Source: Parcubacteria group bacterium M10-OD1-1 (GTDB lineage: Bacteria; Patescibacteriota; Minisyncoccia; Moranbacterales; UBA2206). Taken from it: 64,000 bases of DNA. This document shows positions 38,375 through 54,591 of the stretch, piece by piece. How positions within the stretch are numbered: the stretch's first letter is position 1; each line of letters starts with the position of its first letter. Below the pieces are notes generated by a model, which did not search any database, was not told the DNA's origin, and saw nothing but the letters and a program-made list of their open reading frames with translations. The position numbers and the translations under genes were made by a program. The stretch spans positions 36,369 to 100,368 of the forward strand of contig LSNL01000002.1 of NCBI GenBank assembly GCA_003056145.1. Reading direction: 5' to 3'.

Positions 38375-38396
38375 ATAAAATTGTGAGTTATCTTAT

Positions 38397-38896: not shown

Positions 38897-38920
38897 AACA
38901 ACTTTAAATTTCTCAGTAAA

Positions 38921-38948
38921 AGACCTTGTTTAAACAAGGTCTTTTTTG
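38921..38948 (+). terminator. Rho-independent terminator
   Basis: AGACCTTGT / ACAAGGTCT stem with TTAA loop, followed by TTTTTT. Confidence 0.55.
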
Positions 38949-39018
38949 TTTTTTAATTTGGAATATGCTATTATTAGATTAAAATTTGCTTTATTTAAAA
39001 TAGATTTTAGTAACTTAT

Positions 39019-39684
39019 ATGCAATTTGATATTATTACAATTTTTCCGTCAATGTTTGATTCTTATTTCTCGTATTCTATTCTTAAGCGAGCTCAGGAGA
39101 AAAAATTAATTCAAATAAAAGTTCATAATTTACGAGATTATGCTAATGATAAACATAAGACTGTTGATGACACTCCTTATGGAGGAGGAGCTGGAATGGT
39201 AATGAAAGTAGAGCCGATCTATAAAATAATTCAAAACCTCAAAGAAGAAGCTAATCAAACAAAAAAGAAAACTAGAATTATTTTATTTTCAGCTAAAGGA
39301 AAACAATATAATCAAAAAGAAGCAGAAAAATTATCAAAATATGATCAATTAATTTTAATTTGTGGACGCTATGAAGGGGTAGATGAAAGAGTGTCTCAAT
39401 ATATTGCTGAAGAAGAAATTGCTATTGGAGAATATGTTTTAACGGGCGGAGAAATACCAGCAATGGTGTTGGTTGACAGTGTATCGCGTCTTATCCCTAA
39501 TGTATTGGGTAATGAGGAAAGTTCTAAAAATGAATCACATAAAGAAGAAAATTATTTAGAATATCCTCAATATACAAAACCAGAAAATTTTTTAAACTGG
39601 AAAGTTCCCCCAGTTCTTTTAAGTGGTAACCATCAAGCTATCAATAAATGGAGAGAAGAGGAAAGTCATAATTATGAAAAATAA
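39019..39684 (+). CDS. trmD: tRNA (guanine37-N1)-methyltransferase
   Basis: [16 protein letters not shown] start, with [10 protein letters not shown] and [10 protein letters not shown] motifs. Confidence 0.9.
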
Positions 39685-40792
39685 AATTAGCAAAATAAGA
39701 CAGTCAATAGATACTAAATTATTTTTTACTGTTTTTGGTTTGCTGATTTTTGGTTTAATTATGATTGCTTCAGCTGGAATTTCTTATTCTCGGGTTCACT
39801 TCGGTGATCCGTATTATTTTTTTAAACATCAACTTTTTTATGGTGTAATTCCTGGCTTTATTATGCTTTATATTGCCCAAAGAGTTAATTATAATTTTTG
39901 GAAAAGAATATCCTTTCCTTTTTTTCTTTTGAGTATAATATTTTTAGTTTTAGTTTTTGTGCCGGGTTTTGGTTCTAGAATTTATGGAGCTAGTCGCTGG
40001 ATCAAATTAGGTCCTTTCTCTTTTCAACCAGCGGAAATGTTAAAGCTTTCTATGGTTATTTATTTAGCTGCTTGGCTAGAGGGTAAAATAAATAAAGTGA
40101 AGGATTTTTATGAAGGCTTAGTTCCTTTTTTAGTAATTTTAGGTATTGTAAGTTTTCTTTTAATTAAGCAACCAGATATGGGAACTTTAGGAGTAATAAT
40201 TTTAATTGCTATTTCTATTTTTTTTATTTCTGGAGCTAAAGTTTCTCATATTCTAATGATGGGAAGTATCGGATTTTTAGGATTGTATATTTTAATAAAA
40301 ATAAAACCGTATAGAATGAATCGGTTTTTAGTTTTTTTGCATCCCGAGCTTGATCCACAAGGAATTGGTTATCAAATCAATCAGGCTCTTTTAGCTATTG
40401 GGTCAGGTGGAATTTTTGGAGTTGGCTTGGGACATAGTTTGCAGAAAATGAATTATTTACCTGAGCCAGTAGGTGATTCTATTTTTGCAATTATTGGCGA
40501 AGAGTTAGGTTTGATTGGAGCAGTTGCTTTAATTGCTCTTTTTGTTTATTTTGCAATACGAGGATTGAGAATTGCCAAAAATGCTCCTGACCGTTTTTCT
40601 CAATTAATAGCTGTTGGGATAGTGTCTTGGATTGCTTTTCAGGCTTTCATTAATATAGCTGCTATCTCTGGACTAATTCCTTTAACTGGAATTCCACTTC
40701 CATTTATCAGTTATGGAGGAACTTCAATTATTTTTCTGATGGTTGCCGTTGGCATATTGCTTAACATTTCAAAATATTCAAAATCTAGCTAA
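39674..40792 (+). CDS. ftsW: SEDS-family peptidoglycan glycosyltransferase FtsW/RodA
   Basis: 10 TM helices and SEDS motifs. Start set at the ATG at 39674 (preceded by a GAGGAAAG RBS), which overlaps the trmD end by 11 nt. The track ORF starts upstream at 39623. Confidence 0.85.
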
Positions 40793-40819
40793 TTTTAATT
40801 TATTTAATATTATAAAAAT

Positions 40820-41923
40820 ATGAAAATTGTCTTAACTGGAGGTGGAACAGGAGGGCATTTAGTTCCCCTTGTCGTCATAGCTAAAAAAATAAAGGAAAAA
40901 AATCCAGAAGCTCAATTTTTATTTATCGGTCCAGCTGGAGCAATGGAGAAAAAAATAATTGGCGGAGCAGGGATTCCGATGAAAAAAATTGCGACTGGAA
41001 AAATGAGGAGGTATTTTTCTTTTCAAAATTTAGTAGATTTTTTTAAGGTACCTTTCGGAATCTTGCAAGTGCTATGTTTACTTTTATGGAATATGCCAGA
41101 TGCCATTTTTTCTAAAGGCGGTTATGCTTCAGTCCCAGTTGTTTTAGTTGGTTGGCTTTATAGAATTCCAATTTTAATTCATGAATCTGATGCTAATCCT
41201 GGAGTTTCCAATAGTATTTTAGCTAAATTTGCTAACCGAGTAGCAGTAGCTTATTCGCAAGCTGAAATATATTTTCCAGCAGAACAAGTAGTTTTGACTG
41301 GCAATCCATTACGAGAAGATATTGTTCAAGGAGAAGCTCAAAAAGCAAGAGAACTTTTTTCTTTAATTGAATCTAAAAAAGTTATTTTTGTTTGGGGCGG
41401 TTCGCAAGGTTCAAAAATTATTAACGATAACATTTTAGAGGTCTTACCAGAGCTGCTAAGAGAGTATCAGGTTATTCATCAGACTGGAGAAAATAATTTG
41501 AAAGAAGTGAAAAAGAAAGCAGGAGAATTAGGGATTAAGGCTGGGAGAGAAGGTTATTTTCCTTTAGCTTTTATTGAAGAAGAATTAAAAGATATTTTAG
41601 CTGTTTCTGATTTAGTTATTTCTCGAGCGGGAAGTAGCTCAATTTCTGAAATAGCTGCTAACAGAATACCATCAATCTTAATTCCTTTAGAAAACGCAGC
41701 CAATAATCATCAAAGAATGAATGCCTATGCGATTGCTAAAATCGGAGGAACAGTAGTTTTAGAAGAAGCTAATTTAAGGGGGCATATTTTATTAGGAAAA
41801 ATTAAAGAAATTTTAACCAATGATGAATTCAGGGAAAAGTTAAGGAATAATGTAGGAAAATTTTATCACGCTGACGCAACGGAAAAAATAGCGGAAGGAT
41901 TACTAGGAATGATTAGAGACTAA
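40820..41923 (+). CDS. murG: Undecaprenyldiphospho-muramoylpentapeptide beta-N-acetylglucosaminyltransferase
   Basis: MKIVLTGGGTGGHLVPLVVIA start, and a GGSQGSK region. Confidence 0.9.
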   Translation: MKIVLTGGGTGGHLVPLVVIAKKIKEKNPEAQFLFIGPAGAMEKKIIGGAGIPMKKIATGKMRRYFSFQNLVDFFKVPFGILQVLCLLLWNMPDAIFSKGGYASVPVVLVGWLYRIPILIHESDANPGVSNSILAKFANRVAVAYSQAEIYFPAEQVVLTGNPLREDIVQGEAQKARELFSLIESKKVIFVWGGSQGSKIINDNILEVLPELLREYQVIHQTGENNLKEVKKKAGELGIKAGREGYFPLAFIEEELKDILAVSDLVISRAGSSSISEIAANRIPSILIPLENAANNHQRMNAYAIAKIGGTVVLEEANLRGHILLGKIKEILTNDEFREKLRNNVGKFYHADATEKIAEGLLGMIRD

Positions 41924-41933
41924 TTTTAAAAAT

Positions 41934-43337
41934 ATGAAACTAGATTTAACAAAAATAAAAAAAGTTTATGTAATCGGGATTAAAGGTTCAGGAATTATTG
42001 CGATTGTGCAAATGCTACATTCTCAAGGAATAGAAATTTTAGGATCAGATACGACCGAAAAATTTTTTACTGATGCAATTTTACAAAAGATGAAAATAAA
42101 ATATTTTGAGGGGTTTAATCCTGAAAATATTCCTTTAGATGTTGATTTAGTAATTTATTCTACTTCTTATAATGAAAATAATAATGCAGAATTGGTAGAA
42201 GCTAAAAAAAGAAATTTAAAAATTATCAGTTATCCAGAAATTCTAGCTTCTTTCTTTAACCAAAAATTCGGTATTGCTGTTGCAGGAACTCATGGAAAAA
42301 CTACTACCTCCGCTATGTTAGCGCAGGTGATGTTAGAGGCTGGTGCCGATCCAAGCGCCGTTGTGGGTAGTCAAATTAAAAGTTGGGAAGGCAATGCTTT
42401 AGTTGGTCGGGGAGAATATTTTATTGCAGAAGCAGATGAATTTCAAAATAAACTTCAATTCTATTTTCCTAAAATGGTAATTTTAACCAGTGTAGATTGG
42501 GATCATCCAGATTTTTTTGAAAAATTTTCTGATTATAAAAAAGTTTTCCAAGACTTCGTTAAAAAAATTCCACGAACAGGATTATTAGTAGTTTGGGGAG
42601 AAAGTGTAGATACCTTGGAAGTAGCTAAGGAAGCTACTTGTCAAATAATTAGATATGGTTTTGCAGAAGATAATGAGGTGAGAATTATCAACTATCAATT
42701 ACAAATTCCTGAACAATCTTCAATTTCTAATTGGCAAGAATTTGAAATTTCAATCAAGGGAAAGTCTTTAGGTAAATTTAAAACTCGGCTAGTTGGTCAA
42801 CATAATGTTTTGAATGTAGCTAGTGTAATTGTTATTTGCTATAAGTTAAATTTAAATATGGAAAAAGTCAAAAAAGCTCTTTGGGATTTTCAAGGAACAG
42901 CTAGAAGATTTGAATATATTGGAACCAGAAATGGAGCTATTTTAATTGATGATTACGGGCATCATCCAGAGGAAATAAAAGCTACTCTAAAAAGTGCTAG
43001 GGAAATTTATCCTCAAAAAAATATTTTGGCAATTTTTCAGCCACATACTTTCACTAGAACAAAAATGTTTCTTGACGAATTTGCTCAAAGTTTTAGTGCA
43101 GTTGATAAAGTGATTGTTTTGGATATTTATGGCAGTGCTAGAGAAAATCAAGGAGGAGTTAGCTCTCAGGATTTAGTAACTTTAATTAATAAATTTGATT
43201 ATCAAAAAGCTCAAAACATTGCAACGGCAGAAAAAGCAGTGGAATATTTAAAAGATAAGCTAGATCAGAATGATGTAGTTATTACTATTGGCGCTGGTAA
43301 TGGTTGGAAAATTGTAGAACAATTAAAAAAAGATTAG
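41934..43337 (+). CDS. murC: UDP-N-acetylmuramate--L-alanine ligase
   Basis: VYVIGIKGSGIIAIVQMLHSQGIEILGSD, and GIAVAGTHGKTTTSAML P-loop. Confidence 0.9.
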   Translation: MKLDLTKIKKVYVIGIKGSGIIAIVQMLHSQGIEILGSDTTEKFFTDAILQKMKIKYFEGFNPENIPLDVDLVIYSTSYNENNNAELVEAKKRNLKIISYPEILASFFNQKFGIAVAGTHGKTTTSAMLAQVMLEAGADPSAVVGSQIKSWEGNALVGRGEYFIAEADEFQNKLQFYFPKMVILTSVDWDHPDFFEKFSDYKKVFQDFVKKIPRTGLLVVWGESVDTLEVAKEATCQIIRYGFAEDNEVRIINYQLQIPEQSSISNWQEFEISIKGKSLGKFKTRLVGQHNVLNVASVIVICYKLNLNMEKVKKALWDFQGTARRFEYIGTRNGAILIDDYGHHPEEIKATLKSAREIYPQKNILAIFQPHTFTRTKMFLDEFAQSFSAVDKVIVLDIYGSARENQGGVSSQDLVTLINKFDYQKAQNIATAEKAVEYLKDKLDQNDVVITIGAGNGWKIVEQLKKD

Positions 43338-43381
43338 GAATAAAATAATAAGGGTAGGTAAGTTAAAAAATATAAAAAAAT

Positions 43382-46300
43382 ATGGATAAACAAAAAAACA
43401 AATTACAAAATTTTACTAATCTCTATGAGCTATCAAAAACTTTGAGGTTTGAGTTGAAACCGGTTGGGGAAACACTTGCAAAAATAAAAGAACACTTTCA
43501 GTATGATAAAGATTTGCAAACTTTTTTGAAGGATCAAAAGATTGAAGATGCTTATCAATTATTAAAACCAAAAATAGATACCATTCATGAATTTTTTATT
43601 GATACTAGTTTAGAGTCGGCAAAAGCAAAGCAAATAGATTTTAGTGAATATCTTGAAAAATATAAAAAGAAAGATGCTTTACTAGACACAGAAAAGAAGT
43701 TAAGAAATGCTATTGGAAAAACTTATCTTGAAGGAGGGAAAAAACTAAAATATGAATATCTAGATTTAAAATGGAAAAAAGGAAGTAGTGAAACAAGGGG
43801 AGTGAATATGCTTTTTTCTATTGATATTTTAGAAGCAGTAAGACAAGATTTTTCTGATGATGAAGATGTAGAAAATGCTTTGGAGGAATTTAAAAGTTTT
43901 TTCACTTATCTTTCCGGTTTTAATCAAAACAGAGCTAATTATTATACAACAGATGGAAAAGTTACTGCAATAGCAACTCGTATTGTTGATGAAAATTTAC
44001 CAAAATTTTGTGCCAATACTTTGCAGTTTAACGGATACACGAAAAAAAATAAAAAAGGAAAAGAGATAAAATTTGATAGAAAAAATGAATATCTTGAAAT
44101 ATACACATATCTCAAAGCTCAAAACAAAACAACTCAAATCAAAGATGCTGATACAGACACAATGATAGAGGCAACTCCTATTACTGAAGAAATATTTCAG
44201 ATAGCTTATTTTGTAAATTGTTTTTCACAAAAAGAGATTGAAGAATATAATAAAAAAATAGGACATTGCAATCAACTTATCAATCTTTATAATCAAGCGA
44301 AAAACAAAGAAGAAAATTTCAAAAAACTTCCGTTGTTTAATACACTTTACAAGCAAATTGGATGCGGTAAAAGAGAGCCATTATTTTTTAGCATTACTCA
44401 TGACACAAAAAAGCAATCTAAAGAAAACAAAGAAAAATTCTCAAAACCATATTCGGTAGAAGAAATTTTGGAAGATGCCAAAGATGGTGGAGAAAAGTTT
44501 TTTAAAGAACCAAGTAATAACGAGGATATGACAGTTTATACTTTGACTAAATGGCTTAGAAACAATAAAGATTGGGAAGGTGTATATTGGTCAAAACCTG
44601 CTATAAATACAATTTCTAACAAATATTTTGCTAATTGGCATGAAATAAAAGATAAATTAAAAAAAGATAAAACCGTTGCTAGTTTTAACAAAAAAAGAGA
44701 GGAACAAATAAAGATTAATGATGCTGTTGAATTAGCGGGACTTTTTGAAGTGTTGGATGATTTTGGAGATGAAGGAATGCAACCAGGGCGGAGTGAGAAG
44801 TTTTTTAAACCATCAATTATTCAAGATAGAAAAGATGAAATAGATGAATCTAAAACGCTAAGCCAAAATCTTCTCAGTATGCTTTGTAATGATATAGAAA
44901 ATAATGCAAAAGATTTTACAGATACAGAAAAACAAGCAAAAATCTTTTCAATCTCAGATTACAAAGAAGATAAAAATAAAAAATTTATCAAAGAATGGAT
45001 GGATGGTGCTTTGGCTGTAAACAAAATGATAAAGTATTTTAGAGTAAAGGCAAACAAGATAAAAGGATCAGAAATAAACACAGAACTTAACAATATTTTA
45101 GATATTCTTTTGGATAAAGAAAAAGCAGATTGGTTTAAGTGTTATGATTCTTTGAGAAACTATCTTACAAAAAAACCGCAAGATGATGTAAAAGAAAATA
45201 AATTGAAGTTGAATTTTGAAAAAGGAAATTTGTTAAATGGTTTTGTTGATTCGCATTCTGCATCTGATAATGCTACGCAATACGGAGGGTATTTATTTAG
45301 AAAATATATTGGAAATGATGAGTTAGAATATAAAAAATATTATTATTATTTAGGAATTAGTAAAGATCCAAAATTATTTCGTTGTCATTTGCAGAATGAA
45401 ATCCGAGAAAATGATAAGAATGAATTGCAAAGATTGGAATATTATCAACCTAAATCTACTACTTTTTTTAGTGATAAGTATTCAGAAAATAAGAAAAAAA
45501 TTGTAGAGTATCTTTCTGCAGAATTAAATGTGCAAATTGAAAAAGAAAAGGAGCTTTTAGATATAGAAAATGATAATAAAAAAATAGGTGAGCTAGATAG
45601 ACTAAAAACGAAATTATTAAAAGGAGATACTCCTACAAAATTATTTGATAATATACAAAAAAATAAAAAGTATATATATATTTTAGAAGATAAAAAACTA
45701 AATGAACTAGTTGATGAAACTATTAAAGAGATGAAAATTTTTATTAAAAATTATGAAGAAAGAACCTCAAAATTAAAAGAGATTCAAGAAAGAAAATATA
45801 TTGGCTGGAAAGATTTAAAGTGTATAATTGATGATTTACAAGAAATAGCTAAAAAACAAAAAGTATATAATTTTTTTGCTATTAGTAATTCTGAATTTCA
45901 GGAAGTAAAAAATAGAAAAGACAAGCCATTGTTTTTATTTCAAATAGTAAATAAAGATTTACAAAGGCCATTAATACTAAAAGACAAAAAAACAGGAAGG
46001 TCTGTTATAAACAATCTTCACACCATCTATTTTGAGACACTACTTTCTGGAAATCAAGACGCTATTGACATAGGAGCTGGAGCTATTTTTTACAGGCAAT
46101 ATGCTATTGATAAAAAGGTGTTAAAAGATGGATATGAAAAAAAGCCATGGATTATAAAAAATAAAAGATTTACAAAAAATGAATCATTGACTGAAGATAA
46201 AAAAATGTTATCACAAGATGGAAAATCTTTTTTTCTACATTTATCAATCAGTTTAAATTTTTCATCAGATCCTAGTACTATAAGGGGTAAAAGAAATAAA

Positions 46301-47710
46301 AAAGTAGTTGCAACTCTTAACACACTTACTCAAACGGAATTTATCAAGCAAGAAAATATTTACTTCCTTGGTCTTGATCGAGGAGAAAAACACCTTGTAT
46401 ATTATTGTTTAATTGACCAAAAAGGAAAAATTATAAAACAAGGAGATTTAGACATGCCATTTCTAGATGCAAATAAAAATCCTAGAAGTGTTTTGAGGAA
46501 AAAATATTTTTATGATAAAAAGACAAAAGAATGGGAGGAGAAGGAAGTAGATTGTTGGAATTATAATGATTTACTGGATGCTGTTTCCTCAAATCGTGAT
46601 ATGGCTCGTAAAAATTGGCAAACTATTGGGAATATAAAGAATCTCAAAGCGGGATATATTTCACAAATTGTTTATGAGATTGTAAAAGAAGTAACGAATA
46701 AACCAACTTATATCGTTTTGGAAGATTTAAATACGGGATTCAAAAGAGGAAGACAAAAAATAGAAAAACAAATTTATCAAAAATTTGAAGTGGCACTTGC
46801 TAAAAAACTTAACTTCATTGTAGATAAAACAGCTCAAGATGGAGAGCTTGCATCGGTTACAAAAGCATTGCAACTTACTCCACCTGTAGAAAATTATCAA
46901 GATATTGAGAAGAAAAAACAAGTGGGAGTTATGCTTTATACAAGAGCTAATTATACTTCTGTTACTGATCCAAAAACGGGATGGAGAAAAACAGTTTACT
47001 TGAAAAAAGGATCGGAAGAATCAATTAAAGAACAAATTTTAGAAAAATTTACTGATATTGGATTTGATGGAAAAGATTATTTTTTTGAGTATGAAGATGA
47101 TTTCACAGGAAAAAAATGGAGGATTTGGTCAGGAAAAGATGGGAAAGCACTGTTGCGCTATAGAGGAAAGAGAGGAAAAGATAAATATGAATGGATTATT
47201 GAAGAGCAAGATATTGTTGAAATTTTAGATGGTGTATTTCAGAAATTTGATAAAAATCGCTCGTTATATGGTCAAATTAAAGAAGGTATAAAGCTTATAA
47301 AATATAATGAACATACCGCTTGGGAATCTTTGCGTTTTGCTATTGATCTTATCCAACAAATTAGAAACTCAGGAGATGTTGAAAAAAAAGAAGATGACAA
47401 TTTCTTGCTTTCGCCGGTAAAAGATGAAAATGGAAAGCATTTTGATTCTCGTGAATATGAAAACCAAGAAAATGCTGATATGCCAAGAGATGCTGATGCA
47501 AATGGGGCATTCAATATCGCTAGAAAAGGTTTGATAATGCATGAGCATATTAAGCAATGGAAAAAAGATGGCGCAAGAAATAAAGACTTAAATTTATTTA
47601 TTTCAGATAGAGAGTGGGATTTGTGGCTATTAAATAGAGAAGAATGGAGAAATAAGTTATCAACTTTTGCATCACAGAAGTTATGGGATGATTTTGCAAC
47701 TAAAAAATAA
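43382..47710 (+). CDS. cas12a: Cas12a (Cpf1) type V-A CRISPR effector nuclease
   Basis: N-terminus FTNLYELSKTLRFELKPVGETL is the Cas12a WED signature. RuvC-I is LGLDRGEKHLVYY (D around aa 999). RuvC-II is YIVLEDLNTGFKRGRQKIEKQIYQKFE. RuvC-III is DADANGAFNIARKGL. A Nuc-like segment lies between RuvC-II and RuvC-III. Adjacent to a CRISPR array with Cas12a-type repeats. Confidence 0.92.
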   Translation: MDKQKNKLQNFTNLYELSKTLRFELKPVGETLAKIKEHFQYDKDLQTFLKDQKIEDAYQLLKPKIDTIHEFFIDTSLESAKAKQIDFSEYLEKYKKKDALLDTEKKLRNAIGKTYLEGGKKLKYEYLDLKWKKGSSETRGVNMLFSIDILEAVRQDFSDDEDVENALEEFKSFFTYLSGFNQNRANYYTTDGKVTAIATRIVDENLPKFCANTLQFNGYTKKNKKGKEIKFDRKNEYLEIYTYLKAQNKTTQIKDADTDTMIEATPITEEIFQIAYFVNCFSQKEIEEYNKKIGHCNQLINLYNQAKNKEENFKKLPLFNTLYKQIGCGKREPLFFSITHDTKKQSKENKEKFSKPYSVEEILEDAKDGGEKFFKEPSNNEDMTVYTLTKWLRNNKDWEGVYWSKPAINTISNKYFANWHEIKDKLKKDKTVASFNKKREEQIKINDAVELAGLFEVLDDFGDEGMQPGRSEKFFKPSIIQDRKDEIDESKTLSQNLLSMLCNDIENNAKDFTDTEKQAKIFSISDYKEDKNKKFIKEWMDGALAVNKMIKYFRVKANKIKGSEINTELNNILDILLDKEKADWFKCYDSLRNYLTKKPQDDVKENKLKLNFEKGNLLNGFVDSHSASDNATQYGGYLFRKYIGNDELEYKKYYYYLGISKDPKLFRCHLQNEIRENDKNELQRLEYYQPKSTTFFSDKYSENKKKIVEYLSAELNVQIEKEKELLDIENDNKKIGELDRLKTKLLKGDTPTKLFDNIQKNKKYIYILEDKKLNELVDETIKEMKIFIKNYEERTSKLKEIQERKYIGWKDLKCIIDDLQEIAKKQKVYNFFAISNSEFQEVKNRKDKPLFLFQIVNKDLQRPLILKDKKTGRSVINNLHTIYFETLLSGNQDAIDIGAGAIFYRQYAIDKKVLKDGYEKKPWIIKNKRFTKNESLTEDKKMLSQDGKSFFLHLSISLNFSSDPSTIRGKRNKKVVATLNTLTQTEFIKQENIYFLGLDRGEKHLVYYCLIDQKGKIIKQGDLDMPFLDANKNPRSVLRKKYFYDKKTKEWEEKEVDCWNYNDLLDAVSSNRDMARKNWQTIGNIKNLKAGYISQIVYEIVKEVTNKPTYIVLEDLNTGFKRGRQKIEKQIYQKFEVALAKKLNFIVDKTAQDGELASVTKALQLTPPVENYQDIEKKKQVGVMLYTRANYTSVTDPKTGWRKTVYLKKGSEESIKEQILEKFTDIGFDGKDYFFEYEDDFTGKKWRIWSGKDGKALLRYRGKRGKDKYEWIIEEQDIVEILDGVFQKFDKNRSLYGQIKEGIKLIKYNEHTAWESLRFAIDLIQQIRNSGDVEKKEDDNFLLSPVKDENGKHFDSREYENQENADMPRDADANGAFNIARKGLIMHEHIKQWKKDGARNKDLNLFISDREWDLWLLNREEWRNKLSTFASQKLWDDFATKK

Positions 47711-47740
47711 ATTAAAAAGTTATGTCTAAAAATAAAAAAT

Positions 47741-50700
47741 ATGAATAATTTCAAAAATTTGTATGAAATAACGAAGACGGTGCGGTTTCAAGCGATTCCT
47801 CAAAATGATAATGCAAAAAATAAAGAATTTATTGATAAAACAAAGCCAGATATTTTTAAATTTACAAAACAATGTCAAAAAATTCAGGAAAATTTTTTAG
47901 ATATTTTTTGTTATAAAGACGCTTTTGAAGAAGAGAATAAAATAGAATTTAAGAAAAAGCGAAAAATAAGGTATGGTTGGTTAAGAAATTACATAAAAAT
48001 TGATTTTTATGATTGGAAAAAAGAAAATAATCGAAATGATAAAGAATATTTTTTAACAGAAGTTGACTATTTACCGAAAGAATTTTTAAGGTGGATAAAT
48101 GAGTGGCAAGAACTTACAAATAAGTTAGATGAGTTTGTTGATAAAAATGAAGAGGAACAGGAACGAAAAAGTGAGATTGCTTTTGTCTTGCGTGGGTTTT
48201 TAAAACGGCAAAATTTTGAATTTATTCAAGAATTTGTAAAAGCGGTAATGGATTTGCAAAATGAAAGTGGAATAGAGTTAGATAAAAAAATAAAAGAGTT
48301 AAGAGAATTAATTTCAGAAACTTATAGAAATTTAAAAGCCTGTGAAAGAAAGTATTTACCCGCTCAAAGCACCGGAGTCTGTTTATATAAAGCAAGTTTG
48401 AATTACTATACAATAAACAAGACACCAAAATATTACACAAAAGAAAAAGAAAAAAAAGAAAAAGAGTTAGAAATGGAAATTATTGATTGTAAAGATAAAT
48501 TTGGAAAACCAGAGTTTTGGTTTGATAAAAAGTTTAATTTTAGAGAAAATCCACTTTATTGGACTCTTGAAGATGCCTATCAAAAAATGAAAATTTGGAA
48601 AGCAGATCAAAAATCAAAATTTAATGAAAAAATTGGGAATTTTATTTCCGATTATTTAAAAAAAGAATTTAAGGAGGATGAAATAAATCAATCACGGTTA
48701 GAAATTGCAAAAAATATTTTAAAAAAATATCCGTTATTTTCACCTATCAAAGAAGACTTTTTTATATCTTTTTTAGAACAGACAAAGGAAATAAAAATAA
48801 AATCTAAACAAAAAAATGATATTCTGCAAAAAAATGGAGATATAAAATCAAAAGAATTTGAAAAAATAATTTCTCAAAAATTACAAAATAGAAAGGTTCT
48901 CACAGAAGATGAGAACAATTTTGAGCAACTTTCAAAAGAAATAGCTAATATTGCCAAAGAGAGAGGAAAATTTTTTAATGCTCCAAATCAAACTATTCAA
49001 ACAAAAAATTATTATGAATTGTGTGAATTGTACAAACAAATTGCGATGAAGCGTGGGAAGATTATCGCAGAAATAAAAGGGTTGGAAAATGAAGAAGTGC
49101 AATCCCAAATGCTTTCTCATTGGGCCTTGGTGGTGCAAAAAAGGGAAAAAAGGTATGTTGTTTTTATTTCTCGTGGAGAAAATGAAAATCATAAGAAGGC
49201 TCATGATTGGCTAGAAAGAAACAAAGAGAATTTACAAAAAAAATCAGATGATTCTGTTATTTTGTATCATTTTAAATCTCTCACTTTACGAGCATTAGAG
49301 AAACTTTGTTTTAAAGAAGTTGAAAATACTTTTGCTCCAAAATTGAAACAAGGGGGAGTTAAGGTTAATTTTACGAGAATTAAAAAAGAATCCGGAAAAG
49401 AAAAAATAATTGATGTTTATGAGTTTCCAAGGTGTAAGCAAGAATTAAAAACAGATAACGAAAAAATAAATTTTTATTTAGAAGTTTTAAGATTTGAAGC
49501 AAGTAGACAAGATTATGAACTTAAACAATTAGATTTAGTTGATTTCGGAGGTTTGAAAGAATTTTTAGAAAAATCATCTGGTGATTTTGATAATCTGCAA
49601 GAATTTGAATCAGAGCTTGAAAAGGTGTGTTATGTTAAAGTACTTCTTTATTTTTTGGAAGATCAGTATGATAAATTTTTAGACATACTAAATGCAAAAG
49701 AGTTTGAAATAACAACTCGAAGTATCTCAAAAGAGAGTAAGAGAAAAGAAAATGCACATGCAGAAATTTGGAAAAATTTTTGGAATGATGAAAATGAAAA
49801 AAGTAATTATATTACCCGATTAAATCCAGAGATGAGTGTTTTTTATAGAGACACTCTTGATACACATGAAGGGAACAGAAACAGGTTTTCAGAACCTCGT
49901 TTTACACTTGCAACAACTATTACACTCAACGCAACGGCTAAAAAATCAAATTTATCATTTAAGACAATAGATGATATTAAAAAGAGTATTGATAAATTTA
50001 ATAAAGGGTTCAATAAGAATTTTAGAGGAGAATGGAGTTTTGGAATTGATAGAGGATTAAAAGAATTAGCGACTTTAAATATTGTAAAATTTGCAAAAGA
50101 TAAAAATGAATTTGGTGTTTCAAAACCAGAAAATTTTGCAGAGATAACAGTTTATAAATTAAAAGATGGGGATACATTTTTGACCGATAGTAGTGGTAAT
50201 GATTTGATAAATGCAAAAGGAGAAAAAAGAAAAATTATTGATAATATTTCGGAGGTTTTGCAAGAAAATGTGGAACCTGACTCAGAACTATTTGAGAAAC
50301 AAATTATTTCCAGTATTGATTTAACTCAAGCAAAACTTATCAAAGGGCATATTATTCTGAATGGAGATCAAAAAACTTATTTAAAACTTAAAGAATTATC
50401 AGCAAAAAGAAGAATTTTTGAGCTTTTTTCTACAAGAAAAATTGATAAGAGTTCAGAGATTACAGGAAAAAATAATTTTATAATTGGTGGTGAGAAAATC
50501 TATTTTGCAACAGAATGGCAAAAAGAAAATAAACATTGGAGAACAAATAGAGAAATAATAAAAGCTGATTTAAAAGATTATTTATTGAAATTAGATAAAA
50601 AAAATAAATTTGAAGATATTGAGCAAATAGAAAAAATAAATCATTTACGAGATGCAATAACGGCAAATATGGTTGGAATTATTTTTCACCTGCAAAATGT

Positions 50701-51226
50701 ACTAGGGATGAATGGTTTTATTGGATTGGAAAATCTTGATGTAATACGAAAAGAACTTTTAGAAAATGAAAAACAAGAAGACAAAAAAATGATTGAAGAG
50801 CATTTTGATCAGAGTAATGAAGATATTTCTCGTCGTTTGGAGTGGGCATTGTATAGAAAATTTGCAAATGTTGGGGATGTTCCACCACAAATAAAAGAAT
50901 CAATATTACTGAGAGATGATTTTTTGACCTATCAAATTGGAATTTTGAAATTTGTAAAAGTTGGCGGAACAAGTCGAGGTTGTCCAAACTGTAAAATATT
51001 TTGGGACAATGGGTGTGGTAGTAAATGTAATCCAAAGTGTAGTAGGTGTTTGGAAAATGAAGAATATAAGAAAAGTAAGAATAAAAATATTTATATTTGC
51101 AAAGACGTAAAAAAATGTAAATTTTCAACAGAAGAAAATCGAAATTTATTAGAAGAAAATCTTAATAATTCAGATGAGGTTGCAGCATATAATGTAGCAA
51201 AAAATGCTTTTGAGGAAACATATTAA
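47741..51226 (+). CDS. cas12a2: Second, divergent Cas12a-like effector with zinc-ribbon in place of Nuc domain (Cas12a2-like)
   Basis: N-terminus MNNFKNLYEITKTVRFQAIPQNDNA is Cas12a-WED-like. RuvC-I is WSFGIDRGLKELATL (around aa 770). RuvC-II is NGFIGLENLDV (around aa 997). RuvC-III is NSDEVAAYNVAKNAF (around aa 1145). Between RuvC-II and RuvC-III lies a Cys-rich segment: GCPNCKIFWDNGCGSKCNPKCSRCL...ICKDVKKCKF. The protein is 1161 aa, against 1442 aa for the adjacent Cas12a. It starts 31 nt after the cas12a stop and shares the downstream array. Confidence 0.65.
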   Translation: MNNFKNLYEITKTVRFQAIPQNDNAKNKEFIDKTKPDIFKFTKQCQKIQENFLDIFCYKDAFEEENKIEFKKKRKIRYGWLRNYIKIDFYDWKKENNRNDKEYFLTEVDYLPKEFLRWINEWQELTNKLDEFVDKNEEEQERKSEIAFVLRGFLKRQNFEFIQEFVKAVMDLQNESGIELDKKIKELRELISETYRNLKACERKYLPAQSTGVCLYKASLNYYTINKTPKYYTKEKEKKEKELEMEIIDCKDKFGKPEFWFDKKFNFRENPLYWTLEDAYQKMKIWKADQKSKFNEKIGNFISDYLKKEFKEDEINQSRLEIAKNILKKYPLFSPIKEDFFISFLEQTKEIKIKSKQKNDILQKNGDIKSKEFEKIISQKLQNRKVLTEDENNFEQLSKEIANIAKERGKFFNAPNQTIQTKNYYELCELYKQIAMKRGKIIAEIKGLENEEVQSQMLSHWALVVQKREKRYVVFISRGENENHKKAHDWLERNKENLQKKSDDSVILYHFKSLTLRALEKLCFKEVENTFAPKLKQGGVKVNFTRIKKESGKEKIIDVYEFPRCKQELKTDNEKINFYLEVLRFEASRQDYELKQLDLVDFGGLKEFLEKSSGDFDNLQEFESELEKVCYVKVLLYFLEDQYDKFLDILNAKEFEITTRSISKESKRKENAHAEIWKNFWNDENEKSNYITRLNPEMSVFYRDTLDTHEGNRNRFSEPRFTLATTITLNATAKKSNLSFKTIDDIKKSIDKFNKGFNKNFRGEWSFGIDRGLKELATLNIVKFAKDKNEFGVSKPENFAEITVYKLKDGDTFLTDSSGNDLINAKGEKRKIIDNISEVLQENVEPDSELFEKQIISSIDLTQAKLIKGHIILNGDQKTYLKLKELSAKRRIFELFSTRKIDKSSEITGKNNFIIGGEKIYFATEWQKENKHWRTNREIIKADLKDYLLKLDKKNKFEDIEQIEKINHLRDAITANMVGIIFHLQNVLGMNGFIGLENLDVIRKELLENEKQEDKKMIEEHFDQSNEDISRRLEWALYRKFANVGDVPPQIKESILLRDDFLTYQIGILKFVKVGGTSRGCPNCKIFWDNGCGSKCNPKCSRCLENEEYKKSKNKNIYICKDVKKCKFSTEENRNLLEENLNNSDEVAAYNVAKNAFEETY

Positions 51227-51240
51227 ATAATTTCTTAGAA

Positions 51241-51309
51241 ATTAAAAATGGCGATGATTTAGCTTCTTATAACATCGCAAAGCGAGGATTAAAAATTTGC
51301 AAAATATTA
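51241..51309 (+). pseudogene. Orphan fragment encoding a Cas12 RuvC-III/C-terminal-like peptide (IKNGDDLASYNIAKRGLKICKIL)
   Basis: Translation of 51241-51309 gives NGDDLASYNIAKRGL, matching the Cas12a DADANGAYNIARKGL motif. No start codon. Lies 15 nt after the stop of the second effector. Confidence 0.35.
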
Positions 51310-51618
51310 TAACAAGAGTAGAATTAGAGTATAAAAAGGATTTTACTGGAGGAGATAGTATTTATATATTTCAAGTATGCGAAGGATGTAAAAAAAAGAT
51401 TAAACGATATGGTTATGCTAAACATGAAGAATCAGATTTTATTTGCGTTTCATAAGGCTCTTTTACAATTAGCTAAAAGTATAAATTTCAGTCAGCCTAT
51501 TTCAAAAAATACAAAACCTCAGTTTCAATATCGTGGTTTTGCTTTATTTAAGTCAAAAAGTCGTTTTAACCTTAGTTTAAAATTTGCATCTTTTTGGCTT
51601 AAATATGCTATTTCTGGG

Positions 51619-53366
51619 CTCAAATAGACTTATCAAATTTCTACTTTTGTAGATTACATCTCCTATTACAATTATATCGTTCTCAAATAGACTTATCAAA
51701 TTTCTACTTTTGTAGATATGCGTTTTTTAAGATTTTTAATAATTGCTCAAATAGACTTATCAAATTTCTACTTTTGTAGATATTTTTGCTCCTCTACCAT
51801 TTTTCCTCTCAAATAGACTTATCAAATTTCTACTTTTGTAGATCTAATTTACCACCTTGTTGGGTTTCAACTCAAATAGACTTATCAAATTTCTACTTTT
51901 GTAGATTCTTTATCGCCAATTCTATGCGGCTTCTCAAATAGACTTATCAAATTTCTACTTTTGTAGATCAATAACTAAATAAAAGTTTTTGGGTGAACTC
52001 AAATAGACTTATCAAATTTCTACTTTTGTAGATTTCTAACATAAAATATGACTGTAAATCTCTCAAATAGACTTATCAAATTTCTACTTTTGTAGATTGA
52101 AGACTTGGAGTAAATCTAAAATAGACTCAAATAGACTTATCAAATTTCTACTTTTGTAGATCTAGATACTTGTTTGGCTAATGTAGCTCCTACACTCAAA
52201 TAGACTTATCAAATTTCTACTTTTGTAGATGAGTTGCTCAAAAGTATATTTTAGAGATAGATCTCAAATAGACTTATCAAATTTCTACTTTTGTAGATGT
52301 TATAGCGTTCATTTTACCAGCAAAGCTCAAATAGACTTATCAAATTTCTACTTTTGTAGATTTTGCTTAATCCCAACCCAGATGCCCCTCAAATAGACTT
52401 ATCAAATTTCTACTTTTGTAGATAGGGGTGTAGGCTTTCCTCCTGGCTTGGACCTCAAATAGACTTATCAAATTTCTACTTTTGTAGATCCTCGTGCACA
52501 TCTTTGCGTACTACTACCTCAAATAGACTTATCAAATTTCTACTTTTGTAGATTTCTATCGTGCAGGAGTTAAAAGTATTGCTCAAATAGACTTATCAAA
52601 TTTCTACTTTTGTAGATGATGATTTAAGAAATAATAATAAATACTCAAATAGACTTATCAAATTTCTACTTTTGTAGATATTGTTCCCGTGATTACATCC
52701 ACTGATGGCTCAAATAGACTTATCAAATTTCTACTTTTGTAGATTCTACCCTTGGCTATATCAACCATTCTCAAATAGACTTATCAAATTTCTACTTTTG
52801 TAGATCTCGCCTAGCCAGCGAATAGCTAATACTCAAATAGACTTATCAAATTTCTACTTTTGTAGATGTAGTGAAGAAAATAACTTAATTTTAGACTCAA
52901 ATAGACTTATCAAATTTCTACTTTTGTAGATAAGGACCCATTAGGCAAACGGTAAGCGTCCTCAAATAGACTTATCAAATTTCTACTTTTGTAGATGGCG
53001 TGACAGACAATGCAACATCCATACTCAAATAGACTTATCAAATTTCTACTTTTGTAGATGTAGAATTGTCTGTATTAAATAACCTAGAACTCAAATAGAC
53101 TTATCAAATTTCTACTTTTGTAGATAGTCCAGAGGTCTTCAGTGTCTACATACTCAAATAGACTTATCAAATTTCTACTTTTGTAGATTCATTGCCACTC
53201 TTATCCGGTGATCACTCAAATAGACTTATCAAATTTCTACTTTTGTAGATACCGCCTATCAGCGATATTACTCTCCTCAAATAGACTTATCAAATTTCTA
53301 CTTTTGTAGATAAGTGGAAATTAAAAACCCAATTAAAGCTCAAATAGACTTATCAAATTTCTACTT
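51619..53366 (+). CRISPR. CRISPR array: 28 repeats (27 full plus 1 degenerate terminal) of 36 nt, CTCAAATAGACTTATCAAATTTCTACTTTTGTAGAT, and 27 spacers of 25-33 nt
   Basis: Repeats start at 51619, 51682, 51746, 51808, 51871 and so on, through 53276. The last repeat (53339-53366) diverges after CTACTT. The repeat 3' half AATTTCTACTTTTGTAGAT is the Cas12a crRNA 5'-handle, with stem TCTAC/GTAGA and loop TTTT. The array is oriented on the + strand: leader on the cas-proximal side, degenerate repeat distal. Confidence 0.97.
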
Positions 53367-53610
53367 GGGAGCATTTTTTTCATTTGCGTTGTTCTTCTGC
53401 AGCTGAACCATCAATGCGAGAAGTAACAATTCCCCTTAGTGAGGAATTTTGTAAAAAATTTCCTCAACATTCATTTAATAGGCGGATGCCAGAGGGTTGG
53501 ATTTTAGAAAAATAGAAAAAATTTAGATTTGAGAATAGTAATAAAGCTATTGTTTGTAACCAAACAATAGCTTTTAAAATTGGTATAAGTGTGATAAAAT
53601 TTAATTAGTA

Positions 53611-54591
53611 ATGAAAGTAAAAATAGAGAGAAAAAATAAAGAATTAGTAGGAAATAAAAACTTTATGATAAATATTCAAGAAAATATTTCTTTGGTTCCG
53701 TATACTACCTTTAGAATTGGCGGATTAGCGAAATTTTTTTGTGAAGTTAAAAATCAAGAAGAACTTAAAGAGGCACTTGATTTCGCTGAAAAAAACAAGG
53801 TTGTAGTTTTTCTATTGGGTAAGGGCAGTAATATATTATTTAGTGATGATGGTTTTGCTGGTTTGGTAATTAAGCTTATTAAGGGAGCTTGCCAAATATC
53901 AGGAACAAATATGAAATGTGGAGCTGGAATGTCGTTAGCAAAAGTGGTGATTTTAGCAATGAAAACTTCTTTAACTGGTTTAGAATGGGCGGCTGGAATT
54001 CCAGGTACAATCGGTGGAGCAGTGAGAGGAAATGCTGGCGCATATGGTTCGGAAATGAAAAATATCGTGCAAGCAGTCAAGGTCTTTGATATTAAAGAAA
54101 AGCAAGTAAGAATCTATAATTCAGTCGAATGCGAATTTGAATATCGTTGTAGTCTTTTTAAAAAAAATAAAAATCTAATTATTCTATCGGTTACTTTGGA
54201 ATTACAAAAAGGAGAAACTGAGCAAATTAGCCAAAAAATACAAACTATAGTTAAAAAAAGAAAAGATACTTTACCAAAAGAAAGAAGTGCGGGTAGTTTT
54301 TTTAAAAATCCAATAACTAATAATAAAAAATTAATCAAACAATTTGAAGAAGAAAAAAAAGTGAAAATACGAGATGATAAAATTCCTGCTGCTTGGTTAA
54401 TTGAAGAGGCTGGACTGAGAGGAAAAAAAATTGGTGGAGCACAGGTTGATAAAAAGCATAGTAATTTTATTGTTAATACAGGACAAGCAACTGCTCAGGA
54501 TGTTATTATTCTAGCTAGTGTAATTAAACAAAAAGTAAGAGAAAAATTGAGCATTCAGTTGCGAGAAGAGATTCAATATGTAGGATTTTAA
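53611..54591 (+). CDS. murB: UDP-N-acetylenolpyruvoylglucosamine reductase
   Basis: LVPYTTFRIGGLAKFF, GKGSNILFSD, and GAGMSLAKVV FAD-binding motifs. An alternative start at 53662 (MINIQ) is possible. Confidence 0.85.
   Translation: MKVKIERKNKELVGNKNFMINIQENISLVPYTTFRIGGLAKFFCEVKNQEELKEALDFAEKNKVVVFLLGKGSNILFSDDGFAGLVIKLIKGACQISGTNMKCGAGMSLAKVVILAMKTSLTGLEWAAGIPGTIGGAVRGNAGAYGSEMKNIVQAVKVFDIKEKQVRIYNSVECEFEYRCSLFKKNKNLIILSVTLELQKGETEQISQKIQTIVKKRKDTLPKERSAGSFFKNPITNNKKLIKQFEEEKKVKIRDDKIPAAWLIEEAGLRGKKIGGAQVDKKHSNFIVNTGQATAQDVIILASVIKQKVREKLSIQLREEIQYVGF

What the first reader, a model, noticed from the sequence alone, without database searches (positions are those of the whole stretch)
51227..51618. 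Cas12 C-terminal-motif gene fragment and Cys-containing peptide remnant between the second effector and the CRISPR leader
Translating 51241-51309 gives IKNGDDLASYNIAKRGLKICKIL*, a clear match to the Cas12a RuvC-III/C-terminal consensus DADANGAYNIARKGL. It has no start codon. In another frame, 51312-51452 encodes ...DSIYIFQVCEGCKKKIKRYGYAKHEESDFICVS*, a zinc-ribbon-like peptide also without a start. This suggests a recombination or duplication scar. It could be the relic of a former effector 3' end or of an adaptation or accessory gene. That could explain how the second effector arose and why no acquisition genes remain. The annotated ORF 51409..51627 overlapping the leader is probably not real.
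Basis: seen in the sequence. Interest (0 to 1): 0.5.

Follow-up and report, generated by a model that had tools for sequence, protein, structure and literature searches.

The report
Gene-loss scar beside a CRISPR array
The 392 bases between the second CRISPR nuclease gene and the CRISPR array are a double scar: the tail end of an older, replaced nuclease gene joined to the last half of cas2. The join was left by a 1.8-kb deletion that removed the spacer-acquisition genes, so this is ordinary gene decay, here documented precisely.

Summary
A sister contig (L001, GCA_003056095.1) has the same murC|cas12a-second effector|array|murB locus. It differs at one base across window 47849-51244, but carries cas4, cas1 and a 93-codon cas2 where the window has nothing.

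- **Deletion.** The window lacks 1,812 bp, with the junction at 51296/51297.
- **Second peptide.** 51297-51455 is 100% identical to Cas2 residues 42-93. It is not a zinc ribbon: its CEGC is a conserved motif of this Cas2 family.
- **First peptide.** 51229-51296 is a RuvC-III and C-terminal relic that is also present, and longer, upstream of cas4 in L001, so it predates the deletion.
- **Origin of the relic.** It matches the short C-terminal ends of Cas12a3-type effectors (profile E 1.4e-8), not Cas12a. The final "CKIL*" is cas2 DNA read out of frame.
- **Second effector.** It is Cas12a3-clade, not Cas12a2.
- **Junction.** The same relic|cas2 junction occurs in an independent metagenome contig (L042), so it is not an assembly artefact.
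- **ORF 51409-51627.** Not conserved, and probably spurious.

One lead remains. The cas2 remnant starts exactly at a promoter-like TTGCAA-N16-TAGAAT that lacks synonymous variation in 13 cas2 genes. C-terminal cas2 stubs beside arrays recur in other loci.

The parts
43382..47710 (+). cas12a, the first effector (1442 aa). Context only.
   Evidence: Pfam RuvC_1 and REC1. NCBIfam TIGR04330 cas_Cpf1, 491.6 bits against a cutoff of 300.
47741..51226 (+). Second effector (1161 aa) of the Cas12a3 clade. It ends ...NSDEVAAYNVAKNAFEETY* and has an intact natural stop.
   Evidence: The only significant PDB sequence matches (E<=0.001; nothing else with E below 0.3) are Ba1Cas12a3 9hlx (E 3e-61) and Cas12a3 21we (1.3e-58). 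Homologues at 38-52% identity are listed as Cas12a3 in PMC12851939 Supplementary Table 1. Homologues end at the same point.
51229..51296 (+). Relic of the last ~23 codons of a former Cas12a3-type effector gene: the RuvC-III motif D-x4-YNIAKRGL and the start of the C-terminal tail (NFLEIKNGDDLASYNIAKRGLKI). No start codon, and nothing upstream of it belongs to that gene.
   Evidence: Profile E 1.4e-8. A longer copy, NFLEIRNGDDLASYNIAKRGLEFIKSKSSEDDNEE*, lies upstream of cas4 in L001 and L078. The best external match is the C-terminus of the L055 effector...EEIKNSDDVAAYNIAKRGWEFIKTQKI*.
51296..51297 (.). Deletion junction. 1,812 bp present in L001 (13558-15369) are absent: the relic tail, cas4, cas1 and cas2 codons 1-41. 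There is at most 1 nt of microhomology.
   Evidence: blastn of L001 against the window. Sequences read directly. The same junction, GCGAGGATTAAAA(A/G)TT|TGCAAAATATT, is in the independent contig L042.
51297..51455 (+). cas2 remnant: codons 42-93 plus the stop. Formally a 52-codon TTG ORF with GAGGA 8 nt upstream.
   Evidence: 100% identical to L001 Cas2 residues 42-93. Cas2 HMM positions 40-92. The fragment alone reaches no Pfam or NCBIfam threshold.
51297..51324 (+). Promoter-like element TTGCAA-N16-TAGAAT inside cas2 codons 42-51. Inferred candidate promoter for the leader and array.
   Evidence: Consensus scan gives 9 of 12 matches, not above shuffles. Among 34 invariant-residue degenerate codons in 13 cas2 DNAs, only codons 42 (TTG), 44 (AAT) and 50 (GAA) show no synonymous variation. 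The element is kept in the decayed stubs of L005 and L068.
51456..51618 (+). CRISPR leader, intact. It differs from L001 at one base and has conserved blocks, for example TTTGCATCTTTTTGGCTTAAATA at 51583-51605.
   Evidence: Alignment of ten loci.
51409..51627 (+). 72-codon ATG ORF that overlaps the cas2 3' end, the leader and the first 9 nt of repeat 1. Probably spurious.
   Evidence: Open only in the window, L001, L087 and L088. Interrupted in L089, L090 and L080. ACG replaces ATG in L084 and L086. No family hit.
51619..53311 (+). CRISPR array of 27 identical 36-nt repeats (CTCAAATAGACTTATCAAATTTCTACTTTTGTAGAT), followed by one more spacer and a degenerate terminal repeat at about 53339-53371.

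Best explanation
Window 51227-51618 is non-functional debris from two successive rearrangements, plus an intact CRISPR leader.

**Step 1, older (inferred).** The resident Cas12a3-type effector gene sat directly upstream of cas4-cas1-cas2. It was replaced by a different Cas12a3 allele with the ...NVAKNAFEETY* type of end. The incoming gene brought its own stop codon. It was joined illegitimately about 30 codons before the end of the old gene. This left the old RuvC-III and C-terminal tail as an untranslated relic in the -1 frame.

**Step 2 (shown by comparison).** A 1,812-bp deletion with no useful microhomology removed the end of that relic, cas4, cas1 and the first 41 codons of cas2. It fused relic codon ~23 to cas2 codon 42.

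The result is a locus that should still make crRNAs for two effectors (Cas12a and Cas12a3), because the leader, the array and both effector genes are intact. It cannot acquire spacers with its own genes.

The deleted haplotype was not created freshly from an L001-like sequence. The last 16 nt of the relic carry the states of the diverged contig L042, which has the same junction. The intact and deleted haplotypes therefore coexist and are exchanged by homologous recombination between near-identical backgrounds.

**Secondary claim (inferred, about 40% confidence).** The remnant begins exactly at a sigma-70-like promoter embedded in cas2 codons 42-51. That promoter would drive the leader and array, which would explain why this half of cas2 survives.
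For: **Sister locus**
- L001 shares the flanks at 99.9% and the effector with one mismatch across window 47849-51244 (about 3.4 kb). It has cas4 (TIGR04328), cas1 (TIGR04329) and cas2 (TIGR01573) between the relic and the leader.
- The window's remnant equals Cas2 residues 42-93 exactly. Together, the cas2 remnant and the leader differ from L001 at a single base, at 51618 in the leader.

**Relic**
- The relic lies upstream of cas4 in L001 and L078, so it predates the deletion.
- It is significant against a Cas12a3 C-terminus profile (E 1.4e-8). It ranks with Cas12a3-type tails rather than Cas12a tails, by score and by distance to the stop.
- The current effector ends where its homologues end.

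**Junction and haplotypes**
- The same junction is present in the independent contig L042, whose effector is only 60% identical. L042 also has a further 34-nt internal deletion in the relic, as expected of decaying DNA.
- Window and L001 differ at 9 of about 50 nt just left of the junction, yet are nearly identical on both sides. At the three junction-proximal sites the window has the L042 state.
- A Logan contig from SRR14803398 ends exactly at 51244, the base before the first difference. This is what an assembly-graph bubble would produce.

**Promoter sub-claim**
- Codons 42, 44 and 50 alone lack synonymous variation in 13 cas2 sequences.
- The 40-nt element persists in L005 and L068 although the rest of cas2 has gone or decayed.
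Against: - **Direction of the recent exchange.** It cannot be told whether the deleted patch was imported into an L001-like genome or an intact module into a window-like genome.
- **No extant source for the relic.** No extant effector with a closely matching tail was found. A 40-residue search of 5.8 billion proteins returned nothing. The best relative, L055, shares about 17 of 25 positions.
- **Codon-position bias in the relic.** Six of the nine window/L001 differences fall at third codon positions of the relic frame. This is mildly unexpected for neutral DNA; my binomial estimate is p about 0.04.
- **Promoter.** It matches only 9 of 12 consensus positions and is not above shuffled expectation. 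Part of its conservation is forced by conserved residues. One Bacteroidales locus (L065) has a cas2 stub cut inside the corresponding region. There are no transcript data.
Confidence: 0.88

Rival explanations
1. Chance resemblance in AT-rich intergenic DNA. Neither peptide derives from a gene.
For: Against this genome's own Cas12a the motif match is only 18.5 bits and sits among many chance-level hits. The sequence is AT-rich and has no ATG start.
Against: The relic has profile E 1.4e-8 in a six-frame search of the whole window, against 0.12 for the next hit. The second peptide is 52 of 52 residues identical to Cas2 of L001. Both pieces are syntenic with the intact genes in L001.
Confidence: 0.01
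2. The effector relic is the 3' end of a former cas12a gene, and not of a Cas12a3-type gene.
For: The motif 'NGDD..YNIA' also resembles CPR Cas12a sequences such as KNGDDNGAYNIARKGI in L001, L080 and L004. Cas12a has clearly been swapped at this locus.
Against: The best Cas12a score is 61. The twelve best non-self matches, scoring 62-93, are all Cas12a3-type C-termini. In L001 the relic stops 22 residues after the motif, like Cas12a3-type proteins (12-26), whereas Cas12a continues for 49-63 residues. 'AKRGLEFIK' matches L055 'AKRGWEFIK'. The Cas12a3 C-terminus profile does not pick up this window's own Cas12a at all.
Confidence: 0.07
3. The 52-codon cas2 remnant (51297-51455) is a functional mini-protein. 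The fusion created it: the GAGGA Shine-Dalgarno comes from the relic and TTG is the start.
For: GAGGA lies 8 nt upstream of TTG, and L042 has the same arrangement. The ORF is intact in the window, L042 and L089. Differences from intact cas2 genes are mostly synonymous; L042 against L087 is 92% identical in nucleotides with 3 residue changes.
Against: The fragment lacks the N-terminal half of Cas2, including strand 1 with the catalytic Asp8, and it has no Cas1 partner. The window copy is identical to an intact cas2, so it has had no independent evolution to test. L042 carries Y53C, seen in 0 of 97 intact Cas2 sequences. In L005 and L068 the coding part is deleted or frameshifted while the first 40 nt persist. 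Each stub is closest to an intact cas2 rather than to other stubs, so the synonymous pattern can come from recent truncation or from recombination.
Confidence: 0.08
4. Assembly artefact. The junction is a chimeric join or a collapsed region in a metagenome-assembled contig, and the real genome has the adaptation genes.
For: The source is evidently a metagenome-derived CPR genome. A Logan contig breaks at 51244, which shows assembly ambiguity exactly here.
Against: The identical relic|cas2 junction is present in an independent and diverged contig (L042, VAPK010152412.1). The sequence left of the junction carries L042-like states, not L001-like states, which a collapse of L001-type reads would not produce.
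Confidence: 0.04

Closest known systems
Type V-A CRISPR-Cas loci with an additional Cas12a3 effector (Cas12a3 clade; Nature 2026, 649:1312, PMC12851939)
   Same: The second effector's only significant solved relatives (E<=0.001) are Cas12a3 structures. Relatives at 38-52% identity are listed as Cas12a3. It shares a Cas12a-type repeat and sits next to an array. That paper's Supplementary Table 1 shows many Cas12a3 and Cas12a2 loci with an array but no cas1, cas2 or cas4.
   Different: Here the loss of the adaptation genes is caught in the act. The breakpoint is known to the base, an intact sister haplotype exists, and the tail of a previous effector remains. I built no tree and did not examine the tRNA-loading domain.
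Cas2 (Pfam PF09827, NCBIfam TIGR01573) of type V-A adaptation modules
   Same: Residues 42-93 are identical to a bona fide 93-residue Cas2 that passes both models. The conserved CEGC and RYGYAKHEESD motifs are present.
   Different: The N-terminal 41 residues are missing, including the first strand with the catalytic Asp. The fragment passes no family threshold, and no Cas1 or Cas4 is present in the window.
Degenerate or adaptation-less CRISPR loci and cas pseudogene remnants in general (recalled from general knowledge of CRISPR-Cas evolution, not tested here)
   Same: Modular loss and exchange of the adaptation and effector modules, with interference parts and the array kept.
   Different: A C-terminal cas2 stub starting at codons 39-51 next to the leader recurs in several unrelated loci (L022, L032, L065, L089). 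I am not aware of this having been described as a pattern.

Membership tests
Cas12a3-type effector, C-terminal end (for the relic 51229-51296) | RuvC-III motif with the catalytic Asp five residues before [YF]N[IV]A[KR] | tested here: met
   The relic reads NGDDLASYNIAKRGL. D is at position -5 and the YNIAK core is present.
Cas12a3-type effector, C-terminal end (for the relic 51229-51296) | Significant match to a profile of family C-termini | tested here: met
   E 1.4e-8 and 31.5 bits in a six-frame search of the window. The next best hit has E 0.12.
Cas12a3-type effector, C-terminal end (for the relic 51229-51296) | Protein ends 12-26 residues after the motif, unlike Cas12a | tested here: met
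   The undeleted relic in L001 stops 22 residues after the motif. In the window the tail is cut by the junction.
Cas12a3-type effector, C-terminal end (for the relic 51229-51296) | A complete gene: RuvC-I and RuvC-II, zinc ribbon, REC lobe, start codon | tested here: not met
   The relic begins 2 nt after the stop of the current effector. A TGA at 51211-51213 closes its frame upstream. It is a fragment, not a gene.
Cas12a (TIGR04330), as the source of the relic | About 50-60 further residues (end of RuvC and Nuc) follow the RuvC-III motif | tested here: not met
   Cas12a tails are 49-63 residues long, against 22 for the relic. The best Cas12a score is 61, against 93 for L055.
Cas12a3 (for the second effector 47741-51226) | Closest characterised relatives are Cas12a3, not Cas12a2 or Cas12a | tested here: met
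   PDB hits are 9hlx Ba1Cas12a3 (E 3e-61) and 21we Cas12a3 (1.3e-58). No Cas12a2 chain appears even at E<=10. Homologue loci L025, L022, L034 and L045 are named Cas12a3 in PMC12851939.
Cas12a3 (for the second effector 47741-51226) | tRNA-loading domain and RNA-triggered cleavage of tRNA 3' tails | not tested
   No structure prediction or domain mapping was done. The activity cannot be tested with these tools.
Cas2 (PF09827 / TIGR01573), for 51297-51455 | Sequence homology to Cas2 | tested here: met
   52 of 52 residues identical to L001 Cas2 42-93. A family HMM covers positions 40-92 at 82 bits.
Cas2 (PF09827 / TIGR01573), for 51297-51455 | Full ferredoxin-like fold, including N-terminal strand 1 with the catalytic Asp (residue 8 in L001 Cas2) | tested here: not met
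   Codons 1-41 are absent. The fragment reaches no Pfam or NCBIfam cutoff, whereas the 93-residue L001 protein does.
   There is only one CxxC (CEGC) plus a single distant Cys. CEGC is a conserved Cas2 motif in this family. There is no zinc-ribbon Pfam hit; the only match is a sub-threshold Sgf11 hit at E 0.03.
Sigma-70-type promoter (for 51297-51324) | -35 and -10 hexamers with a 16-18 nt spacer | tested here: inconclusive
   TTGCAA-16-TAGAAT matches 9 of 12 positions. The number of such sites in the region is not above shuffles.
Sigma-70-type promoter (for 51297-51324) | DNA-level conservation beyond what the coding sequence requires | tested here: met
   Of 34 invariant-residue degenerate codons in 13 cas2 DNAs, only codons 42 (TTG in 13 of 13), 44 and 50 lack synonymous variation. 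The spacer codons 46-48 vary.
Sigma-70-type promoter (for 51297-51324) | A mapped transcription start | not testable with these tools
   No RNA data are available.

The most novel reading that the evidence does not exclude
In this family of type V loci the 3' half of cas2, from about codon 42, is part of the functional array-expression unit. It would carry the pre-crRNA promoter TTGCAA-N16-TAGAAT. 'Half-cas2 + leader + array' would then be a selectable module that survives, or is duplicated, whenever the adaptation genes are lost or the effector cassette is exchanged. That would explain why every partial Cas2 hit in 91 sequences surveyed is a C-terminal stub starting at HMM positions 39-51 and lying beside an array. 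It would also explain why stubs in the CPR loci keep the first 40 nt even when the rest has decayed.
Probability: 0.3. Interest if true: 0.45.

Novelty: new member of a known kind. Interest (0 to 1): 0.3.

Why it matters
This locus gives a base-resolution record of how a dual-effector (Cas12a + Cas12a3) CRISPR locus is remodelled. One effector allele replaced another and left its tail behind. The adaptation module was then excised, and both forms circulate in near-identical genomes.

There are two practical points for annotation. A 52-residue Cas2 stub and a 23-residue RuvC-III stub escape all family models, while a spurious 72-codon ORF over the leader does get called.

The finding also makes one modest hypothesis testable: that the array promoter lies inside cas2. 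Otherwise this is ordinary pseudogene debris.

Tried and rejected
- **Wrong first label.** I first called the second effector Cas12a2 from memory. The PDB search showed only Cas12a3 matches, and the label was corrected.
- **Relic search with no result.** The 40-residue L001 relic was searched against the 5.8-billion-protein database. No candidate shared enough words.
- **Tandem duplication rejected.** The relic is not a recent tandem duplication of the current effector's own 3' end. The two tails are of different types (NVAKNAF... against NIAKRGLEF...), and by eye the DNA is only roughly 60% alike.
- **Microhomology-mediated deletion rejected.** The nearest shared pentamers (AGGGT, AAAAT) would give junction sequences different from the one observed.
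- **Programmed -1 frameshift rejected.** No slippery heptamer lies between the -1-frame TGA at 51211 and the stop at 51224, and the product would carry a second RuvC-III motif.
- **Leader promoters.** Conserved leader blocks such as TTTACA...TATAAAT have spacings that do not fit sigma-70, and were left uninterpreted.
- **Promoter scan alone.** It is not informative in this AT-rich DNA.
- **Loci with the closest adaptation modules.** L080-86 and L092-97 were checked for an effector tail matching the relic. None was closer than L055; L093 scored 57.
- **L022 insertion.** The 906-residue ORF between the two cas2-leader copies in L022 is a UvrD/PcrA helicase, not a mobile-element or reverse-transcriptase gene.

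Full report
**Setting.** The window carries ftsW (39623-40792), murG, murC (41934-43337), a 1442-residue Cas12a (43382-47710; TIGR04330, 491 bits) and a 1161-residue second effector (47741-51226). A 392-bp gap follows, then an array of 27 identical 36-nt repeats (51619-53311) and murB (53611-54591). No cas4, cas1 or cas2 is present. The second effector has no Pfam or NCBIfam hit. Its only significant solved relatives (E<=0.001) are Ba1Cas12a3 (9hlx, E 3e-61) and another Cas12a3 (21we), with no Cas12a2 chain even at E<=10. Several of its homologue loci are listed as Cas12a3 in Supplementary Table 1 of PMC12851939. I therefore call it Cas12a3-clade. My initial 'Cas12a2' label was wrong.

**Checking the observation.** Against this genome's own Cas12a the first peptide is unimpressive (18.5 bits). 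Its best local match is the extreme C-terminus of the adjacent second effector. A fair test used a profile of the C-termini of 34 homologues, searched against every stop-to-stop peptide in all six frames of the window. That gave the effector's own end (E 9e-13), then the relic (E 1.4e-8), then nothing better than E 0.12. The second peptide is 52 of 52 residues identical to a Cas2. Both observations are real.

**The sister locus.**
- The 99%-identical cluster representative of the second effector lies on LSNQ01000003.1 (GCA_003056095.1; L001) in the same murC-...-array context.
- L001 matches window 37356-43475 at 99.9%. It matches 47683-51297 at 98.6%, with a single mismatch between 47849 and 51244. 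From cas2 codon 42 to the first repeat it differs at one base.
- Between those blocks L001 has cas4 (TIGR04328), cas1 (TIGR04329) and a 93-codon cas2 (TIGR01573).
- The window lacks L001 13558-15369, which is 1,812 bp. The junction is at 51296/51297, with at most one base of microhomology.
The 'CKIL*' that ends the first peptide is cas2 DNA read out of frame.
- The 'zinc-ribbon-like' CxxC is the CEGC motif conserved in about 90 of 97 Cas2 proteins of this family.

**The effector relic.**
- The relic is not a product of the deletion. In L001, and identically in the metagenome contig L078, it lies between the effector's stop and cas4. There it reads NFLEIRNGDDLASYNIAKRGLEFIKSKSSEDDNEE*.
- The current effector ends where its homologues end (...NVAKNAF-x3-4*), so the relic lies beyond a natural stop and in the -1 frame.
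- All RuvC-III-containing C-termini in the fetched loci were ranked against the relic. The twelve best non-self matches (scores 62-93) are all Cas12a3-type ends, led by L055 ...EEIKNSDDVAAYNIAKRGWEFIKTQKI* at 93. The best Cas12a scores 61.
- The relic's 22-residue distance to its stop fits Cas12a3-type proteins (12-26) and not Cas12a (49-63).
- L055 also has the cas4 and cas2 most similar to L001's among the loci with an effector attached.
- The simplest reading is that a resident Cas12a3-type gene, native to this adaptation module, was overwritten by another Cas12a3 allele and only its last ~35 codons were left. This step is inferred. I found no extant gene with a near-identical tail.

**Age and spread of the junction.**
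- Contig L042 (VAPK010152412.1) has an effector only 60% identical to the window's. It has the same post-stop sequence (TAAATAATTTCT) and the same relic|cas2 junction (GCGAGGATTAAAAGTT|TGCAAAATATT). It also has an extra 34-nt deletion inside the relic. The junction is therefore neither private nor an assembly artefact.
- Window and L001 differ at 9 of about 50 nt immediately left of the junction, while they are almost identical on both sides. At the three junction-proximal sites the window carries the L042 state.
- Each cas2 stub is closer in nucleotides to some intact cas2 than to other stubs: window = L001 at 100%; L042-L087 at 92% against L042-window at 88%.
- I conclude that deleted and intact haplotypes coexist and are exchanged by short-patch homologous recombination. 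Which of the two genomes is the recent recombinant cannot be told.
- A Logan contig from SRR14803398 stops at exactly 51244, the last base before the haplotypes diverge. This is what a graph bubble would cause.
- The same two genomes also carry entirely different cas12a alleles: 29-33% identity, yet the first 31 residues are identical. Recombination at this locus is clearly rampant.
- The arrays share no spacer among the 7 L001 spacers and the 26 interior window spacers (the spacer before the degenerate terminal repeat was not compared).

**The 72-codon ORF.** ORF 51409-51627 overlaps the cas2 3' end in another frame, crosses the leader and stops inside repeat 1. It is open in the window, L001, L087 and L088. 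It is interrupted in L089, L090 and L080 and lacks the ATG in L084 and L086. The leader alignment shows conserved blocks and indels that are not multiples of three, rather than codon periodicity. It is most probably not a gene.

**Does anything in the scar still work?**
- The cas2 stub begins at TTGCAA (51297-51302). Sixteen bases later comes TAGAAT (51319-51324). As a bare consensus match this is weak (9 of 12, not above shuffles).
- In 13 cas2 DNA sequences of this family, 34 codons encode an invariant residue with degenerate codons. Only three of them show no synonymous variation: codon 42 (Leu, TTG in 13 of 13, while other invariant Leu codons use 2-4 codons), codon 44 (AAT) and codon 50 (GAA). 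These lie in or next to the two hexamers. The spacer codons 46-48 vary freely.
- In L005 the stub is reduced to these ~40 nt followed directly by a crRNA handle and array. In L068 the rest of the stub is frameshifted but the element is intact.
- I take this as moderate support (about 40%) for a cas2-internal promoter that feeds the leader and array. That would explain why this half of cas2 is retained.
- The alternative is that the stub is translated as a mini-Cas2, using GAGGA 8 nt upstream of TTG. I consider this unlikely, for the reasons given under rivals.

**A wider pattern.** A Cas2 HMM was searched against the six-frame translations of all 91 sequences in hand. It gave 52 full-length hits and six genuine partial hits. 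All six are C-terminal stubs ending at the natural C-terminus and starting at HMM positions 39, 39, 40, 40, 46 and 51, each beside a leader or array. They include Bacteroidales loci (L022, L065) that are independent of the CPR group. My rough scan-statistic estimate for such clustering is p about 0.02. This is an estimate, not a tool result, and detection limits narrow the range. It remains unexplained.

**Verdict.** The effector family and the 'zinc ribbon' need correcting. In kind it is ordinary: pseudogene debris in a decaying and recombining CRISPR-Cas locus. There is one modest and testable lead, a promoter inside cas2.

Noticed in passing
window 43475-47848 vs L001 6120-10108: The two near-identical genomes carry completely different cas12a alleles (1442 vs 1313 aa, 29-33% identity). 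The first 31 residues and the last few residues are identical. The divergent tract runs about 108 nt into the 5' end of the second effector. This looks like a clean cassette replacement by recombination at conserved gene ends.
   Followed up: partly
window 41934-54591: The whole CRISPR-Cas locus (cas12a, Cas12a3-type gene, array) is inserted inside the cell-wall/division cluster, between murC and murB. The same insertion site is used in L001.
   Followed up: no
L022 10964-15372 (JAIRNR010000051, Bacteroidales Cas12a3 locus): An intact cas2, leader and first repeat are followed by a 906-aa UvrD/PcrA helicase gene. A 368-bp duplicate at 93% identity then starts at cas2 nt 117 (codon 39) and runs through the leader into the real array.
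   Followed up: partly
L065 6290-6460; L032 3900-3400 (minus strand); L089 950-1150: These are further C-terminal cas2 stubs beside arrays. In L065 the Cas12a3 gene's last codons are themselves made of cas2 DNA read out of frame (junction near cas2 codon 46). L089 has a cas12a 3' end, itself disrupted at about 527-640, followed by a stub starting at or before codon 39. L032 has a stub preceded by an isolated repeat.
   Followed up: partly
L005 9169-9250 (Moraniibacteriota, CALNYG010000015): The Cas12a3 stop is followed within about 12 nt by the first 15 codons of the cas2 stub, including TTGCAA-N16-TAGAAT. A bare 19-nt crRNA handle and a short array follow directly, with no leader at all.
   Followed up: partly
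window 51245-51295: Six of the nine differences between the window and L001 relics fall at third codon positions of the relic's old reading frame. This is mildly unexpected for neutral DNA; my binomial estimate is p about 0.04.
   Followed up: partly
L091 (Logan SRR14803398_11082), end = window 51244: An independent assembly of this effector gene terminates exactly one base before the first position at which the deleted and intact haplotypes differ. This suggests that both haplotypes are present in that sample.
   Followed up: partly
window 51230-51244: A perfect 7-1-7 palindrome, AATTTCT-T-AGAAATT, lies immediately after the effector's stop codon. It is shared with L001 and lost in L042. Any function (weak terminator?) is unknown.
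   Followed up: no
window 51456-51618: The leader has strongly conserved blocks across ten loci. Examples are CTTTTACAATT, AAAAAATACAAAACC and TTTGCATCTTTTTGGCTTAAATA (51583-51605). Their spacings do not fit a standard sigma-70 promoter.
   Followed up: no
window 51619-53371 vs L001 15691-16168: All 27 window repeats are identical. None of the 26 interior window spacers (the spacer before the degenerate terminal repeat was not compared) matches any of the 7 leader-proximal L001 spacers, although the leaders are identical. A degenerate terminal repeat lies at about 53339-53371.
   Followed up: partly
L048, L050/L051, L034, L010: Other Cas12a3-type loci show different partial losses of the adaptation module. 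L048 has a cas4 stub fused to the cas1 C-terminal half. L050 and L051 have only cas2 after the effector. L034 has lost cas1. Decay of the adaptation module is common in this group.
   Followed up: no
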